Made by a program: the position numbers and the translations under genes
Shown here: positions 350 through 5,813 of the stretch, one piece after another
Layout: every line of letters starts with the position of its first letter
Numbering within the stretch: the stretch's first letter is position 1
Notes under the pieces: generated by a model
What the model was told of the DNA's origin: nothing
The model's database searches: none
The model's input: the letters and a program-made list of their open reading frames with translations, nothing else
DNA from: a virus
Lineage: Duplodnaviria; Heunggongvirae; Uroviricota; Caudoviricetes
Reading direction: 5' to 3' (one strand)
Length of the DNA stretch: 5,813 nucleotides
IMG/VR virus record: IMGVR_UViG_2690316152_000004
Span: 1 to 5,813 of that record

Positions 350-426
350 TGGCGCGTTGTAGTGGAGTCGAACCACTGACCGATTGCTTAGAAGGCAATT
401 GCTCTGTCCGGCTGAGCTAACAACGC
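350..426 (-). tRNA. tRNA-Arg, anticodon UCU (reads AGA)
   Basis: Reverse complement gives a 77-nt cloverleaf: acceptor GCGTTGT/ACAACGC, D-arm GCTC...GAGC, anticodon stem ATTGC/GCAAT with loop CTTCTAA, T-arm AGTGG-TTCGACT-CCACT, discriminator G and encoded CCA. It resembles the argN/argO-type tRNAs found downstream of Q in lambdoid and Stx prophages. Confidence 0.9.
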
Positions 427-526: not shown

Positions 527-602
527 TGGTGGCCCTTGCTGGATTTGAACCAGCGACCTGGCGATTATGAGTCGCTCGCTCTCACCACTGAGCTAAAGGG
601 CC
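527..602 (-). tRNA. tRNA-Ile2 (anticodon CAU, lysidine type; formally CAT, so Met cannot be excluded from sequence alone)
   Basis: Reverse complement is GGCCCTTTAGCTCAGTGGTGAGAGCGAGCGACTCATAATCGCCAGGTCGCTGGTTCAAATCCAGCAAGGGCCACCA, 76 nt, with a perfect 7-bp acceptor stem, anticodon loop CTCATAA and T-loop TTCAAAT. It is closely similar to E. coli ileX/ileY-type tRNA-Ile2 as I recall it, not to elongator or initiator tRNA-Met. Confidence 0.88.
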
Positions 603-3201: not shown

Positions 3202-4125
3202 TTACCCGAGCACGCCGGTTGCAAAGGCGTGATCAAGAAAACGAAAAATTAAATCAACCTGGGAACCATGCTTTTCTTCGAACGCCAGCGGATCCGCATG
3301 AAGCTCGTTGTGATGCTCCCGACACAGCGGTAGCGTGAAAATATCGTGGGATTTTGTTCCCATTCCGCCCTGACCATGACCAATCAGATGATGAGGATCG
3401 TCCGCTGGCTTACCACAACACGCACACGGCTGTGTCTTTACCCAGCGTGTGTATTTCTCATTTACCCAGCGGCGACGTTTAGGTCGTTTCATGAAGGATT
3501 CCGGAGACTCCGGATCAACGGCAATGCTTACCACCGTCTTTTCCTGTGGCGGGTTTTGCTGGTGGGCGTGAGGCAGCGGCGCAAGATTTTTTGTGCGCTG
3601 TTTCAGGATGCTGGTGGCTGTCTGTTCTCCCGGTATGATGTCGCTTTCGCGGTACACCGAGCGGATTTTTTCCGCACGTAACCCCAGAGAACGACGTAAT
3701 GCTGCCTCTGGTAGCGCATCCGCCACCTGATTGCAGACCGCCCACCAGGATAATTCACCCAGAGATAATTCCCGCTCCTGCGTGCCATTCATTGCATGGC
3801 GTATGACGTCAATCATCCATGCTGACAAATTTTGGTGAGCAAGTTGCCCGAGTGATTCGGAGGTCTGGTCACGCAACTGGTTGTCGCAGTGCCAGCACAA
3901 CACCATTGCGCCGGTACCATAACGGTGAATGACAGTTTCGCTGTGGTGATAATCGCCGTGTGGCCACTGGCAGGATTTAATATGGCGCAACAGCCAGTCA
4001 GACAATGCACCAGCACCACCAGCAGCACGAATCACTCGTTCGTCGCTGAAAAATGGCAGCAATGTTTTGTCTTCCACCAGCGGATGGCGAACGGCAGGAA
4101 CGACCCCGGACGGCAGATTACGCAT
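3202..4125 (-). CDS. ydfU: YdfU-like DUF968 protein with HNH-type Cys/His motifs, downstream copy (native C-terminus, N-terminus removed by the duplication junction)
   Basis: TAA at 3202. The first in-frame ATG after the duplication junction is at 4125..4123 (MRNLPSGVV...), giving 307 aa. The track's longer 345-aa form starts at TTG 4239 and reads the upstream copy's 3' end out of frame, so it is unlikely. C-terminal motif: CACCGKPADDPHHLIGHGQGG...CREHHNELH. N-terminal module: CQWPHGDYHH...CWHCDNQ. The YdfU/DUF968 assignment is by length, motif and Qin-like synteny (ydfU-rem-hokD), from memory. Confidence 0.7.
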   Translation of the reverse strand: MRNLPSGVVPAVRHPLVEDKTLLPFFSDERVIRAAGGAGALSDWLLRHIKSCQWPHGDYHHSETVIHRYGTGAMVLCWHCDNQLRDQTSESLGQLAHQNLSAWMIDVIRHAMNGTQERELSLGELSWWAVCNQVADALPEAALRRSLGLRAEKIRSVYRESDIIPGEQTATSILKQRTKNLAPLPHAHQQNPPQEKTVVSIAVDPESPESFMKRPKRRRWVNEKYTRWVKTQPCACCGKPADDPHHLIGHGQGGMGTKSHDIFTLPLCREHHNELHADPLAFEEKHGSQVDLIFRFLDHAFATGVLG

Positions 4126-4981
4126 GCTTTTCTTCGAACGCCAGCGGATCCGCATGAAGCTCGTTGTGATGCTCCCGACACAGCGGTAGCGTGAAAATAT
4201 CGTGGGATTTTGTTCCCATTCCGCCCTGACCATGACCAATCAGATGATGAGGATCGTCCGCTGGCTTACCACAACACGCACACGGCTGTGTCTTTACCCA
4301 GCGTGTGTATTTCTCATTTACCCAGCGGCGACGTTTAGGTCGTTTCATGAAGGATTCCGGAGACTCCGGATCAACGGCAATGCTGACCACCGTCTTTTCC
4401 TGTGGTGGGTTCTGTTGCTGGTGGGTGTGAGGCGGTAGCGCAATATTTTTTGTGCGCTGCTTCAGTATGCTGGTGGCGGTCTGCTCTCCCGGCACGATGT
4501 CGCTTTCACGGTACATTGAGCGGATTTTTTCCGCACGCCCCCCCAGCGAACGACGTAATACCGCTTCCGGTAGCGCGTCCGCCACCTGATTGCGGACCGC
4601 CCACCAGGATAATTCAGCCAAAGATAATTCACGCTCCTGCGTACCGCTTATTGCGTGACCGATGACGTCAATCATCCATGCTGACAGGTTTTGATGAGCA
4701 AGTTGCTCGAGTGATTCGGATGTCTGGTCACGCAGCTGGTTGTCGCAGTGCCAGCACAACACCATTGCGCCGGTACCATAACGGTGAATGACAGTTTCGC
4801 TGTGATGATAATCGCCGTGTGGCCACTGGCAGGATTTAATATGGCGCAACAGCCAGTCAGACAATGCACCAGCACCACCAGCAGCACGAATCACTCGTTC
4901 GTCGCTGAAAAATGGCAGCAATGTTTTGTCTTCCACCAGCGGATGGCGAACGGCAGGAACGACCCCGGACGGCAGATTACG
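3267..4981. repeat. Head-to-tail tandem duplication: two units of about 856 and 859 bp (3267-4122 and 4123-4981) inside the ydfU-like gene
   Basis: CATGCTTTTC occurs at 3267, 4123 and 4982. The units are identical for the first ~262 bp, differ at about 45 positions plus one 3-bp indel across the central ~350 bp, and show a single difference in the last ~240 bp. Confidence 0.9.
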
Positions 4982-5107
4982 CATGCTTTTCGGTTCCGGC
5001 TCCACCAGTACCCGGGTATTGTGAAATACCTGCATGGATTCACGACCTGGCTTAAGGGCCACCAGCCCGAGTTCCGGTACCAGAACAGGTCGAAGTAATA
5101 CCCGCAC
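4118..5107 (-). CDS. YdfU-like DUF968 protein, upstream copy (native N-terminus, C-terminus truncated at the duplication junction); possibly a pseudogene
   Basis: GTG at 5107 is preceded by a strong SD (TGGAGGT, about 5 nt spacing); an alternative ATG is at 5035. The protein ends ...LAFEEKHA then TAA at 4118, whereas the downstream copy continues ...LAFEEKHGSQVDLIFRFLDHAFATGVLG. Both Cys/His modules are retained. Confidence 0.7.
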   Translation of the reverse strand: MRVLLRPVLVPELGLVALKPGRESMQVFHNTRVLVEPEPKSMRNLPSGVVPAVRHPLVEDKTLLPFFSDERVIRAAGGAGALSDWLLRHIKSCQWPHGDYHHSETVIHRYGTGAMVLCWHCDNQLRDQTSESLEQLAHQNLSAWMIDVIGHAISGTQERELSLAELSWWAVRNQVADALPEAVLRRSLGGRAEKIRSMYRESDIVPGEQTATSILKQRTKNIALPPHTHQQQNPPQEKTVVSIAVDPESPESFMKRPKRRRWVNEKYTRWVKTQPCACCGKPADDPHHLIGHGQGGMGTKSHDIFTLPLCREHHNELHADPLAFEEKHA

Positions 5108-5108
5108 G

Positions 5109-5387
5109 TTACCTCCAGATCCGTTGCTGGAATGTGCGGGACGGACGCGGTGGGCGTTCGGAGTAAGGAAGCCTGACGGAGATTATCCAGTGACGGTAGT
5201 CGAGGCTGAGGGCTTTCTTAATCTCGTATCCGCGCCTGCGGTAACACTGAATCAGCCATTCAGCCTGTTCTTCGGTGCAGGGGTCGTGCTGATACCAGTC
5301 AGATTTGAATGCATGAGAACGCCGCCCGTGCCTGCTGGCAGGGGCGGCAGAGTTATCCGAATTGTAAAATTTGGTATCGTGCGCCAT
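5109..5387 (-). CDS. Small hypothetical protein (92 aa); Rem-like by position between hok and the ydfU-like gene
   Basis: The only in-frame ATG is at 5387..5385; the track start at 5516 is GTG and would place the hok terminator inside the ORF. TAA at 5109 lies 1 nt before the ydfU-like GTG. No motif recognised; the Rem assignment is by synteny with K-12 Qin only. Confidence 0.45.
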   Translation of the reverse strand: MAHDTKFYNSDNSAAPASRHGRRSHAFKSDWYQHDPCTEEQAEWLIQCYRRRGYEIKKALSLDYRHWIISVRLPYSERPPRPSRTFQQRIWR

Positions 5388-5460
5388 CTGTTTTCTCTGC
5401 TGGCGCAGCAGGTGCCAGTTGTTCAGGCTGACGGATGGATTGTAAACCAGAACGACCAGA

Positions 5461-5486
5461 AAAAACAAAACCCGCCGAAGCGGGTT
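5461..5486 (-). terminator. Rho-independent terminator downstream of hok
   Basis: Minus-strand RNA reads AACCCGC-UUCG-GCGGGUU (7-bp perfect stem, UUCG tetraloop; + strand 5469-5486) followed by UUGUUUUU (5461-5468). Confidence 0.7.
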
Positions 5487-5554
5487 AAGTGCGGGTGCGT
5501 TGAGGATGCCTGACACATCAGCGGTGGCGAGGGATTTCTCCCCCGCCTGGTCTC

Positions 5555-5710
5555 TTACTCCTCAGGTTCGTAAGCTGTGAAGACAGCGACCTCCGTCTGG
5601 CCGGTTCGGATTCGTACCTCGCAGAGGTCTTTCCTCGTTACCAGTGCCGTCACTATGACGGTTAAACAGATGACGATCAGGGCGATTAACATCGCCTTTT
5701 GCTGCTTCAT
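5555..5710 (-). CDS. hokD: Hok/Gef-family type I toxin (HokD/RelF-like), 51 aa
   Basis: ATG at 5710 with SD AGGAG about 10 nt upstream. The translation MKQQKAMLIALIVICLTVIVTALVTRKDLCEVRIRTGQTEVAVFTAYEPEE has the Hok single transmembrane helix and the conserved RKxLCE(V/I)R...G..EVA.F.AYE core, and matches my memory of E. coli HokD. The track's 64-aa form is a TTG-initiated in-frame extension. Confidence 0.9.
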   Translation of the reverse strand: MKQQKAMLIALIVICLTVIVTALVTRKDLCEVRIRTGQTEVAVFTAYEPEE

Positions 5711-5779
5711 AGCCTGCTTCTCCTGTGTAAGTTCACAGAGATATTGCAATTGCCTCCGGATAAGTAAGGGGAGATTGCA

Positions 5780-5813
5780 CTATGCAAATGCAGCATCTGA
5801 TGGTTGGCTATCC
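5780..5813 (-). CDS. 3' end of an upstream ORF running off the window edge (C-terminus ...DSQPSDAAFA)
   Basis: An open frame on the minus strand enters at the right edge and stops at TAG 5782..5780, about 70 nt upstream of hok. Only about 10 codons are visible. By Qin synteny relE would sit here, but the visible C-terminus does not match my memory of K-12 RelE (...VKRIL). Confidence 0.2.
   Translation of the reverse strand, partial: DSQPSDAAFA

What the first reader, a model, noticed from the sequence alone, without database searches (positions are those of the whole stretch)
5461..5813. Hok-family toxin embedded in the prophage, with an unidentified upstream partner at the window edge
The 51-aa Hok toxin is preceded by a partial ORF ending at 5780 whose C-terminus (...DSQPSDAAFA) does not look like K-12 RelE as I remember it, although the Qin arrangement is relB-relE-hokD. 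The upstream gene may therefore be a different toxin or regulator. I could not find a convincing sigma-70 promoter on the plus strand for an antisense Sok-like RNA, so control of this hok copy is unclear.
Basis: partly seen in the sequence, partly recalled or inferred. Interest (0 to 1): 0.45.

Follow-up and report, generated by a model that had tools for sequence, protein, structure and literature searches.

The report
Hok toxin gene split by IS
The small Hok toxin gene is real, but the "upstream partner" is not a gene: a mobile insertion sequence has landed on the toxin's ribosome-binding site and cut it off from its own control region, a known kind of event.

Summary
The 51-aa Hok ORF (5555-5710, minus strand) is real. 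It matches Pfam HOK_GEF at 1.2e-23, and RefSeq annotates the identical sequence as hokD. It sits in a lambdoid prophage.

The "partial ORF ...DSQPSDAAFA" is only 10 codons between two TAG stops. It is the antisense of the first codons of a plus-strand gene starting at 5782, an IS481-family transposase.

The window is a complete draft contig that ends 89 nt inside a 1095-bp insertion sequence (IS). The IS starts at 5725 and has a 6-bp target duplication, AGGAGA, which is the hok Shine-Dalgarno sequence.

In the closest complete genomes the rest of the hok/sok module lies 1.1 kb away, beyond the IS: hok promoter, tac, mok start, Sok target and the sok gene (Rfam RF01794, 112 bits). Genomes without the IS show the uninterrupted locus.

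Only the SD, the ORF, the fbi element and the terminator remain beside hok, so there is no Sok promoter to find.

Junction probes on 5426 complete E. coli genomes give 55 with this IS junction, 1164 with the K-12 relE-hokD junction and 4025 intact.

This is a new instance of a known kind (IS-disrupted hok loci).

By-product: this IS repeatedly sits exactly 5 nt upstream of promoter -35 hexamers, often antitoxin sRNA promoters.

The parts
5555..5710 (-). hok coding sequence (51 aa plus stop), identical to K-12 HokD: MKQQKAMLIALIVICLTVIVTALVTRKDLCEVRIRTGQTEVAVFTAYEPEE
   Evidence: ORF list. Pfam HOK_GEF 82.9 bits. RefSeq hokD WP_000813254.1 on identical DNA. The ORF is intact in all six IS-bearing genomes examined.
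5719..5724 (-). AGGAGA: the hok Shine-Dalgarno sequence and one copy of the 6-bp target-site duplication made by the IS
   Evidence: Alignment of the empty site with both IS flanks. The same TSD is present in six genomes. Matches to genomes without this IS junction stop at 5724.
5725..5813 (+). Left end (89 nt) of a 1095-bp IS481-family insertion sequence. The terminal inverted repeat is 5725-5751 (GTGTAAGTTCACAGAGATATTGCAATT). The window, a whole contig, ends inside the IS.
   Evidence: Homology limits of copies in other contexts. Inverted-repeat alignment. The window equals contig CYBG01000068.1, 5813 bp.
5782..5813 (+). First 10 codons (MQMQHLMVGY) of the IS481-family transposase, 362 aa in complete genomes
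   Evidence: Translation. RefSeq CDS at L001 9683-10771. NCBIfam IS481 E 1.7e-65; Pfam rve and HTH domains.
5780..5812 (-). Not a gene.
   Evidence: Three-frame translation of the extended sequence. No ORF of 40 aa or more ends here.
5493..5505 (-). fbi (fold-back inhibition) element CCUCAACGCACCC in the hok 3' UTR. In the intact allele it is complementary to the hok mRNA 5' end (tac, GGGUGCUUGAGG). Its partner is absent from the window.
   Evidence: The MFE of the intact 416-nt mRNA pairs the first ~14 nt with this segment, z = -6.9. The segment is conserved in K-12, O145 and the window.
5460..5486 (-). Intrinsic terminator of the hok transcript (AACCCGCUUCGGCGGGUU followed by a U-run)
   Evidence: Terminator scan. 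The same hairpin is in all alleles.

Best explanation

Shown:
- The IS inserted with a 6-bp duplication of AGGAGA, the hok Shine-Dalgarno sequence, 8 nt upstream of the hok ATG. Its transposase gene points away from hok.
- The hok side keeps only the SD, the 51-codon ORF, the 3' fbi element and the terminator.
- In the closest complete genomes the rest lies 1.1 kb upstream, beyond the IS. This includes the mRNA 5' end (tac) and the mok start codon, which is in frame with hok in the intact allele and now runs 59 codons into antisense IS sequence. The hok promoter, Sok target and Sok promoter (TTGCCT-17-TAACCT) were located there by eye, by analogy with R1, not by a tool. The Sok -35 starts at the last base of the duplicated target.

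Inferred:
- A transcript from the hok promoter would have to cross 1.1 kb of largely untranslated antisense IS to reach hok.
- Translational coupling to mok is lost, and the tac/fbi and Sok-target controls no longer sit on a compact hok mRNA.
- The hok ORF is therefore most likely an orphaned, essentially silent toxin gene in the lysogen, like the IS-inactivated hokA, hokC and hokE loci of K-12.
- Sok may still be made from the other side.

The supposed upstream partner ORF is an antisense reading of the transposase start.
For: - Hok family membership.
- RefSeq annotation of 100%-identical DNA as hokD next to an IS481 family transposase.
- IS boundaries: copies in unrelated contexts (ColV-type plasmids, galF-yegH, ldr cluster, pAA plasmid) share homology only over L001 9626-10720.
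- Empty sites in O145, O157 and BL21 join the two flanks exactly, with a single AGGAGA.
- Rfam RF01794 (hok leader/sok) scores 112.6 bits on the empty site and 112.4 bits on the far side of the IS. It finds nothing in the window.
- tac/fbi pairing is predicted in the intact mRNA, z -6.9.
- mok is in frame with hok in the intact allele and fused to antisense IS in the split allele.
- The junction probe finds the same junction in 55 complete genomes. Six examined in detail have the same TSD and an intact hok.
- The window is a whole contig of a draft assembly ending inside the IS, as expected for a repeat that is multi-copy in some genomes (up to 38 places per genome).
- No promoter-like site in 5300-5813 on either strand.
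- Predicted SD/AUG accessibility is low in the IS allele (weak evidence).
- Literature: R1 hok/sok control by tac/fbi, ucb/dcb, mok coupling and Sok (PMC9841398). K-12 hok loci inactivated by IS elements or rearrangement (PMC7232551 and PMC12214031, citing Pedersen & Gerdes 1999). IS150 insertions recur in hok/sok and ldr regulatory regions in evolution experiments (PMC5419217).
Against: - The far side of the IS is not in the window. It is inferred from four complete genomes that are 99.7-100% identical over 5100-5813 and from 55 genomes sharing the junction. It was not observed in the source strain, whose contig ends in the IS.
- No expression data exist. Silence of hok is an inference.
- The hok ORF and its SD are perfectly preserved in all IS-bearing alleles examined, including ones with divergent flanks. 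That fits a recent insertion but also fits retained function.
- During prophage induction, early rightward transcription runs in the hok direction and could read through the IS.
- K-12 hokD has the same truncated 5' end (only ACAGGAGAAGCAGGCU before the ATG). Its mRNA is nevertheless detected, with 6% A-to-I editing reported (PMC12214031).
Confidence: 0.85

Rival explanations
1. One reading: hok is preceded on the same strand by a partner gene (a different toxin or regulator) in a relBEF-like operon, which controls or co-expresses hok.
For: K-12 Qin has relB-relE-hokD in this arrangement. The visible frame is open to the window edge.
Against: The frame closes with TAG one codon beyond the window, giving 10 codons in total. 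No minus-strand ORF of 40 aa or more ends at 5780. The plus strand encodes a 362-aa IS481-family transposase from 5782. The relE junction probe does not match this allele beyond the hok side.
Confidence: 0.01
2. The insertion rewires hok rather than silencing it. Freed from mok coupling and the Sok target but keeping its SD, hok is transcribed only by read-through, either early rightward prophage transcription after induction or transcription leaving the IS. It would then act as an induction-linked membrane toxin that helps lysis, as reported for HokW in Sp5.
For: The SD and ORF are fully preserved in all IS-bearing alleles examined, across divergent prophage backgrounds. hok lies in the same orientation as the cro-to-Q early genes. 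HokW of Sp5 is produced after mitomycin C induction and increases phage release about two-fold (PMC8621323). K-12 hokD has the same minimal 5' end and its mRNA is detected (PMC12214031).
Against: No promoter-like site on the minus strand in the IS left end. The RBS is predicted to be mostly base-paired for every tested 5' extent. A transcript would have to cross 1.1 kb of largely untranslated antisense RNA, a likely target for Rho termination (inference). There are no expression data.
Confidence: 0.2
3. The junction is an assembly artefact: a chimeric contig end joining hok to an unrelated repeat.
For: The window is a short-read draft contig that ends in a repeat. It also carries a tandem DUF968 duplication not seen in the closest complete genomes.
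Against: The junction probe finds the same junction, covering at least 80% of the 149-nt probe, in 55 complete genomes. Six examined in detail have a matching TSD on the far side.
Confidence: 0.01

Closest known systems
K-12 hokD (relF) in the Qin cryptic prophage
   Same: Identical 51-aa protein (WP_000813254.1), identical 3' UTR elements and the same prophage neighbourhood with DUF968/ydfU and a Q-like gene downstream. In both, hok keeps only about 16 nt of native 5' sequence and lacks mok, sok and tac.
   Different: In K-12 the upstream sequence is relBE (relE stop 71 nt before the hok ATG). Here it is an IS481-family IS. The two breakpoints coincide to within 2 nt (K-12 shares ACAGGAGA...). 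I found no significant similarity between the relBE region and the IS.
IS-inactivated hok loci of E. coli K-12 and B (hokA, hokC, hokE, hokX; Pedersen & Gerdes 1999 as cited in PMC7232551 and PMC12214031)
   Same: An IS element sits close to the hok reading frame but not in it, and separates it from its regulatory elements. hok/sok and ldr regulatory regions are also recurrent IS150 targets in evolution experiments (PMC5419217).
   Different: A different IS (IS481 family rather than IS150/IS186), a different hok paralogue (prophage hokD type) and a precise position on the hok SD, 5 nt upstream of the Sok -35.
hokW-sokW of Sakai prophage Sp5 (PMC8621323)
   Same: A prophage-borne hok/sok locus encoding a 51-aa Hok. 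The intact allele of the present locus is of the same general kind, and its leader matches Rfam RF01794.
   Different: hokW-sokW is intact and was shown to work as a type I TA system and to aid phage release. Here the toxin ORF is separated from sok and the leader. I did not align HokW with this Hok.
hok/sok (parB) of plasmid R1
   Same: The intact allele has the same architecture: 5' tac paired to 3' fbi, an upstream mok frame, and a Sok promoter embedded antisense in the mok/hok translation-initiation region (read). The mechanism is described in PMC9841398.
   Different: mok is in frame with hok here, as I recall for chromosomal mokC, whereas in R1 it is out of frame (from memory). The window allele lacks everything 5' of the hok SD.
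IS481 family of insertion sequences
   Same: A single DDE (rve) transposase with an N-terminal HTH, a length of about 1.1 kb, imperfect terminal inverted repeats and a 6-bp target duplication.
   Different: The NCBIfam score is 221.4 bits, just under the 224-bit cut-off. PGAP gives no named ISfinder element. The transposase ORF has no stop inside the IS and runs 51 nt into the flank. The target preference seen here (TTG at flank positions 6-8) differs from the NCTAGN target I recall for IS481 itself.

Membership tests
Hok/Gef toxin family (Pfam PF01848) | Small hydrophobic peptide of about 50 aa matching the HOK_GEF profile above the gathering score | tested here: met
   82.9 bits against a cut-off of 22, E 1.2e-23, residues 6-47. 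NCBIfam Hok subfamily models match below their cut-offs.
Complete hok/sok type I TA locus | hok mRNA leader with tac, mok start and Sok target (Rfam RF01794) contiguous with hok | tested here: not met
   No RF01794 match in the window, even at E up to 1. The leader lies 1.1 kb away beyond the IS in the identical complete genome (112.4 bits) and is contiguous in IS-free genomes (112.6 bits).
Complete hok/sok type I TA locus | Antisense Sok RNA gene with its own promoter overlapping the mok/hok initiation region | tested here: not met
   No promoter-like site on the plus strand in 5300-5813. By my reading, the Sok promoter (TTGCCT-17-TAACCT) starts at the duplicated target on the far side of the IS.
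Complete hok/sok type I TA locus | 3' fold-back (fbi) element complementary to the mRNA 5' end | tested here: met
   CCUCAACGCACCC at 5493-5505 pairs with GGGUGCUUGAGG in the MFE of the intact mRNA. The 5' partner is not in the window.
Complete hok/sok type I TA locus | Toxicity of the peptide and its repression by Sok | not testable with these tools
   HokD (formerly RelF) is among the ten Hok homologues listed as studied (bioRxiv 10.1101/2025.08.07.668861). RelF toxicity on overexpression is my recollection, not checked here. No experiment is possible with these tools.
relBE-hokD (relBEF) operon of Qin | relE immediately upstream of hokD on the same strand | tested here: not met
   The window diverges from K-12 16 nt upstream of the hok ATG. 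The K-12 junction probe matches only the hok half in other alleles. The extension shows the IS and no relBE.
IS481 family insertion sequence | DDE transposase matching the family model | tested here: inconclusive
   NF033577 scores 221.4 bits against a cut-off of 224, E 1.7e-65, over nearly the full model. The next best family is IS3 at 98 bits. rve, rve_3 and HTH domains are present. PGAP names it an IS481 family transposase.
IS481 family insertion sequence | Defined ends with terminal inverted repeats, a target-site duplication, and copies in unrelated contexts | tested here: met
   A 1095-bp unit with 27-nt imperfect IRs. TSDs are TCTCCT, CTGTGT, AAACTT and CACTCT at four sites. Present in 1151 of 5426 genomes, up to 38 places per genome, on chromosomes and plasmids. 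Empty sites exist.

The most novel reading that the evidence does not exclude
This unnamed IS481-family element may be a promoter-targeting insertion sequence. It integrates in one orientation with its right end exactly 5 nt upstream of a sigma-70 -35 hexamer (the last base of the 6-bp duplication is the first T of TTGNNN).

The strong antitoxin-sRNA promoters of type I toxin-antitoxin loci are among its recurrent landing sites: Sok-type promoters of several hok loci, and the promoter of an Rdl antitoxin of ldr. In hok loci the Sok promoter lies antisense inside the toxin's translation-initiation region, so each such insertion cuts the toxin ORF from its leader as a side effect.

The same hotspot could be connected to the K-12 relBE-hokD junction, which lies at the same nucleotide.
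Probability: 0.35. Interest if true: 0.65.

Novelty: new member of a known kind. Interest (0 to 1): 0.3.

Why it matters
For the finding itself, little changes. It removes a phantom 'partner gene' and explains why no Sok promoter is visible. It adds one more example, present in about 1% of complete E. coli genomes, of hok/sok modules being taken apart by insertion sequences. It also shows that a hok annotation in a prophage does not imply a working toxin-antitoxin pair.

The side observation could matter more. A bacterial IS that picks a fixed register next to promoter -35 elements would be an unusual mode of target choice. It would also give a mechanistic reason why type I toxin-antitoxin loci collect insertion sequences. 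A transposition assay would test it directly.

Tried and rejected
- **Extending the window in its own genome.** The window is the entire contig CYBG01000068.1, so extension relied on identical complete genomes.
- **Shared origin of the K-12 relBE-hokD junction and the IS.** blastn of the K-12 relBE region against the IS gave only 9-16-nt chance matches. Other relE-hokD genomes have the same Qin layout and add nothing. A RelE/ParE gene near hok in strain FHI_NMBU_10 is a different TA pair, downstream of hok.
- **Outward promoter in the IS left end driving hok.** The scan finds none.
- **RBS exposure by the insertion.** Partition-function accessibilities suggest the SD and AUG are mostly paired in the IS allele. 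The values for the intact mRNA (about 0.65) do not reproduce the published sequestration logic, so I treat this calculation as uninformative.
- **Rfam isrK (27 bits), rsmX, P26, STnc100 and sR55 hits in the window.** All are below gathering scores. The isrK and rsmX hits simply cover the hok 3' UTR hairpins.
- **Genome-contig scan for the IS end.** It gave only 2 loci.
- **Literature.** Searches for an IS481-family link to hok/sok or to -35 targeting found nothing relevant. Pedersen & Gerdes 1999 is not held and is cited second-hand.
- **Linking the intact O157 allele to Sp5 hokW.** The hit I fetched lies in a different O157 prophage, so no sequence-level claim about HokW is made.

Full report
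**What is in the window.**
The minus strand of 5555-5710 encodes a 51-aa peptide, MKQQKAMLIALIVICLTVIVTALVTRKDLCEVRIRTGQTEVAVFTAYEPEE. It matches Pfam HOK_GEF at 82.9 bits, E 1.2e-23. On 100%-identical DNA in complete genomes RefSeq calls it hokD, WP_000813254.1, the same protein accession RefSeq gives for hokD in BL21(DE3) and in a strain with the K-12-type relE-hokD arrangement. The rest of the window is a lambdoid prophage nin/Q region on the same strand: DUF968, RusA, a DUF1133/Q-like antiterminator, a DNA methylase and two tRNAs.

**The 'upstream partner'.**
In strain 14EC007, which is identical to the window over 5100-5813, the codon just outside the window is TAG. The frame reads …FGST*DSQPSDAAFA*, ten codons. 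No minus-strand ORF of 40 aa or more ends there. It opens a 362-aa ORF (MQMQHLMVGY…) that RefSeq annotates as an IS481 family transposase. That protein matches NCBIfam NF033577 at E 1.7e-65 (221.4 bits, just under the 224-bit cut-off) and has Pfam rve, rve_3 and HTH domains.

**Why the window stops there.**
The window is the whole of contig CYBG01000068.1 (5813 bp) from draft assembly GCA_001285145.1. It ends 89 nt inside the IS. That is the usual break point when short reads meet a repeat, although the copy number in this strain is unknown. The IS interior occurs in 1151 of 5426 complete E. coli genomes, with a median of one copy and up to 38 places per genome, on both chromosomes and plasmids.

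**Anatomy of the insertion.**
Copies of the element in unrelated contexts share homology with the hok-linked copy only over L001 9626-10720. Those contexts are ColV-type plasmids between iss and iroB, the chromosome between galF and yegH, an ldr cluster, and a pAA plasmid. L001 9626-10720 corresponds to window position 5725 onward.
- The unit is 1095 bp.
- Its imperfect terminal repeats are GTGTAAGTTCACAGAGATATTGCAATT and TGTATGGGTCCACCACATATTGCAATT.
- Genomes lacking the element (O145 RM10425, O157, BL21) join the two flanks exactly. The empty site reads …GGCAAGGAGAAGCAGGCTATG.
- In the occupied site AGGAGA is present on both sides, so it is the 6-bp target duplication. It is also the hok Shine-Dalgarno sequence, 8 nt before the ATG (window 5719-5724).
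- Whole-window matches to genomes that lack this IS junction stop at 5724.
- Six IS-bearing genomes from different prophage backgrounds have the same site, the same TSD and an intact hok ORF.

**What was displaced.**
Rfam RF01794 is named 'sok', but here it aligns on the hok-sense strand from the mRNA 5' end to the hok AUG.
- It scores 112.6 bits (gathering score 59) on the empty site.
- It scores 112.4 bits at L001 10715-10881, 1.1 kb upstream of hok beyond the IS.
- It finds nothing in the window.

Reading the alignments against the R1 paradigm (PMC9841398), the far side carries these elements:
- a likely hok promoter (TTTGCG-17-TAGAAT; my reading);
- the 5' tac sequence GGGUGCUUGAGG;
- the mok ATG;
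- on the opposite strand, the Sok promoter TTGCCT-17-TAACCT. Its -35 begins at the last base of the duplicated target, so the core promoter survives.

In the intact allele mok is in frame with hok, giving a 70-aa product MLYTRRLASYVPKGKEKQA-MKQQ…. In the split allele the same ATG runs 59 codons into antisense IS sequence. The window retains the 3' fbi element CCUCAACGCACCC (5493-5505) and the terminator (5469-5486). In the MFE fold of the intact 416-nt mRNA the first ~14 nt pair with fbi, z -6.9.

**How common it is.**
I probed 5426 complete E. coli genomes with 149-nt junction probes, each made of 60 nt of hok plus 89 nt upstream.

| Junction | Genomes |
|---|---|
| IS junction (this allele) | 55 |
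| K-12 relE-hokD junction | 1164 |
| Uninterrupted leader-hok junction | 4025 |

**Most likely function.**
Published work on R1 shows that hok translation depends on four things: mok translation, the tac/fbi and ucb/dcb rearrangements of a compact mRNA, slow 3' processing, and Sok pairing to the leader (PMC9841398).
- Here the hok ORF has lost all 5' elements. Reaching it from its own promoter requires crossing 1.1 kb of antisense IS, of which only the first 131 nt are translated.
- I infer that hok is an orphaned, essentially silent ORF in the lysogen, while Sok may still be made from the other side.
- This matches the reported state of K-12 hokA, hokC and hokE (inactivated by IS elements) and hokD (rearranged). 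I know these only second-hand, from PMC7232551 and PMC12214031 citing Pedersen & Gerdes 1999.
- IS150 also recurrently hits hok/sok and ldr regulatory regions in evolution experiments (PMC5419217).
- The main rival is that hok is now expressed only by read-through after prophage induction, behaving like HokW of Sp5 (PMC8621323). It cannot be excluded. The SD and ORF are perfectly preserved, hok points the same way as the early operon, and K-12 hokD mRNA with the same minimal 5' end is detectable (PMC12214031).
- The promoter scan and the RBS accessibility estimates do not favour the rival, but both are weak evidence.

**By-product: where this IS lands.**
Other near-identical copies sit next to other type I toxins in the same orientation.
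- One is 14 nt upstream of an ldr ATG, TSD CTGTGT. An Rfam rdlD match (83.7 bits) starts 40 nt beyond the IS right end.
- One abuts the ATG of an srnB-type hok on a pAA plasmid, TSD AAACTT.

The distance to the toxin ATG varies between sites (0 or 8 nt between the duplication and the ATG). The sequence after the IS right end, however, always reads NNNNN-TTGNNN-(17-18 nt)-TAnnnT.

A scan of metagenome contigs for the right-end 27-mer, combined with the loci already fetched, gave 132 junctions in 48 site clusters.
- 23 of 48 clusters have TTG at flank positions 6-8, against a background of 1.45%.
- 16 of 48 also have a -10-like hexamer 16-18 nt further on, against a background of 0.034%.
- After removing hok-like sites, 15 of 40 keep TTG in that register (P about 8e-18). 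Every other register has 0-2.
- 9 of those 15 have the -10 (P about 9e-12).
- The sites include several distinct Sok-type promoters (including an R1-like TTGCGC…TATCCT), the Rdl promoter, the start of the prophage sRNA STnc100, and promoter-like sequences that precede open reading frames.

These are natural insertions that have already passed selection, so survivorship contributes. The single-nucleotide register, however, argues for real target choice. That choice would explain why the IS sits on the hok SD: the Sok -35 lies 5 nt away on the other strand. I found no paper describing this, but the held library is incomplete and ISfinder was not available.

**Unexplained.**
- K-12's homology with this locus ends at ACAGGAGA, within 2 nt of the IS insertion point.
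- Metagenome contigs also show the IS right end abutting the K-12-type relE-hokD spacer at two positions that lack TTG.
- I found no similarity between the relBE region and the IS and cannot say whether the coincidence reflects a shared hotspot or history.
- The leaders beyond the IS differ by up to 18% between IS-bearing genomes, while the IS copies are nearly identical (0-1 differences in five of the six, 26 in one). That fits either repeated insertion at one site or one insertion spread by recombination through the invariant Sok segment.

**Verdict.**
The Hok ORF is confirmed. The partner gene is rejected. The locus is an IS-split hok/sok module, a new instance of a known kind and already annotated gene by gene in RefSeq. 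Interest in the finding itself is low. The apparent promoter-register targeting of the IS is the part worth following up.

Noticed in passing
window 5725-5813 and loci L015, L017, L019-L140: The same IS481-family IS is found with its right end exactly 5 nt upstream of -35-like TTGNNN hexamers, always in one orientation. 23 of 48 distinct sites have TTG in register against a 1.45% background, and 16 of 48 also have a -10 at 16-18 nt. Sites include Sok-type promoters of several hok loci, an rdlD (ldr antitoxin) promoter, the STnc100 sRNA start and promoter-like sequences preceding open reading frames.
   Followed up: partly
window 5710-5726 compared with L002 (K-12) 2276-2292: The K-12 relE-hokD junction shares sequence with this locus only from ACAGGAGA onward, so its breakpoint lies within 2 nt of the IS insertion point. 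Metagenome contigs also show this IS abutting the K-12-type relE-hokD spacer at two positions (IS|TCTCCTGTCAACGC… and IS|AGCAGAAGTGTCACC…). No similarity between relBE and the IS was found.
   Followed up: partly
window 3202-5107: There is a tandem, diverged duplication of most of the DUF968 (ydfU-like) gene. Repeat spacing is 856-859 bp and the blocks are 98% and 87% identical. It gives two overlapping ORFs of 345 and 329 aa. The closest complete genomes have a single copy, so it is either strain-specific unequal recombination between prophage paralogues or a short-read mis-assembly.
   Followed up: partly
L001 9683-10771 (extension of window 5782-5813): The transposase ORF has no stop codon inside the IS. 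It reads through the right inverted repeat and the target duplication, 51 nt into the flanking hok leader. The C-terminal tail therefore depends on the insertion site, and some copies are annotated as frameshifted or truncated.
   Followed up: no
window 5465-5546 (minus strand): The hok 3' UTR (stem-loop, fbi, terminator) gives a weak Rfam match to isrK, the Salmonella Gifsy-1 sRNA (27 bits, gathering score 50, E 0.007). The same match appears in the O145 and 14EC007 alleles. It could be chance similarity of two hairpins or a distant relationship between IsrK and hok 3' UTRs.
   Followed up: no
window 5570-5572 (minus strand, codon 47 TAC in CUUACGAA): Tyr47 is encoded by TAC inside a UACG context. 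This appears to correspond to the position reported to be recoded to Cys by A-to-I mRNA editing in HokC, HokD and HokE (PMC12214031; 6% editing for K-12 hokD). The motif is conserved here.
   Followed up: no
L031, L022, L032 (about 65 nt from the IS481-like junction): Three different hok leaders that carry this IS upstream of the Sok promoter also break, about 65 nt into the leader at …GGCCTCGTG(T/G)TGTA|CTGACCCCAAAAAGTTGGACAG. I recognise that sequence from memory as an IS150 terminus. These hok loci would then have been hit by two different IS elements.
   Followed up: no
window 350-426 and 527-602 (minus strand): Two prophage tRNA genes are present: Arg-TCT, and a CAT-anticodon tRNA that ARAGORN calls Met and RefSeq calls Ile. 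In strain 14EC007 an IS421 copy lies between them, but not in the window. A weak STnc100-like Rfam hit (20 bits) overlaps 307-411.
   Followed up: no
L001, L010-L014 (leader side of the IS): The hok leaders beyond the IS differ by up to 18% between IS-bearing genomes, with different mok N-termini. Five of the six IS copies differ by 0-1 nt (one by 26), and a segment of about 57 nt overlapping the inferred Sok RNA region is invariant. This fits either repeated insertion at the same site or recombination through the conserved Sok segment.
   Followed up: partly
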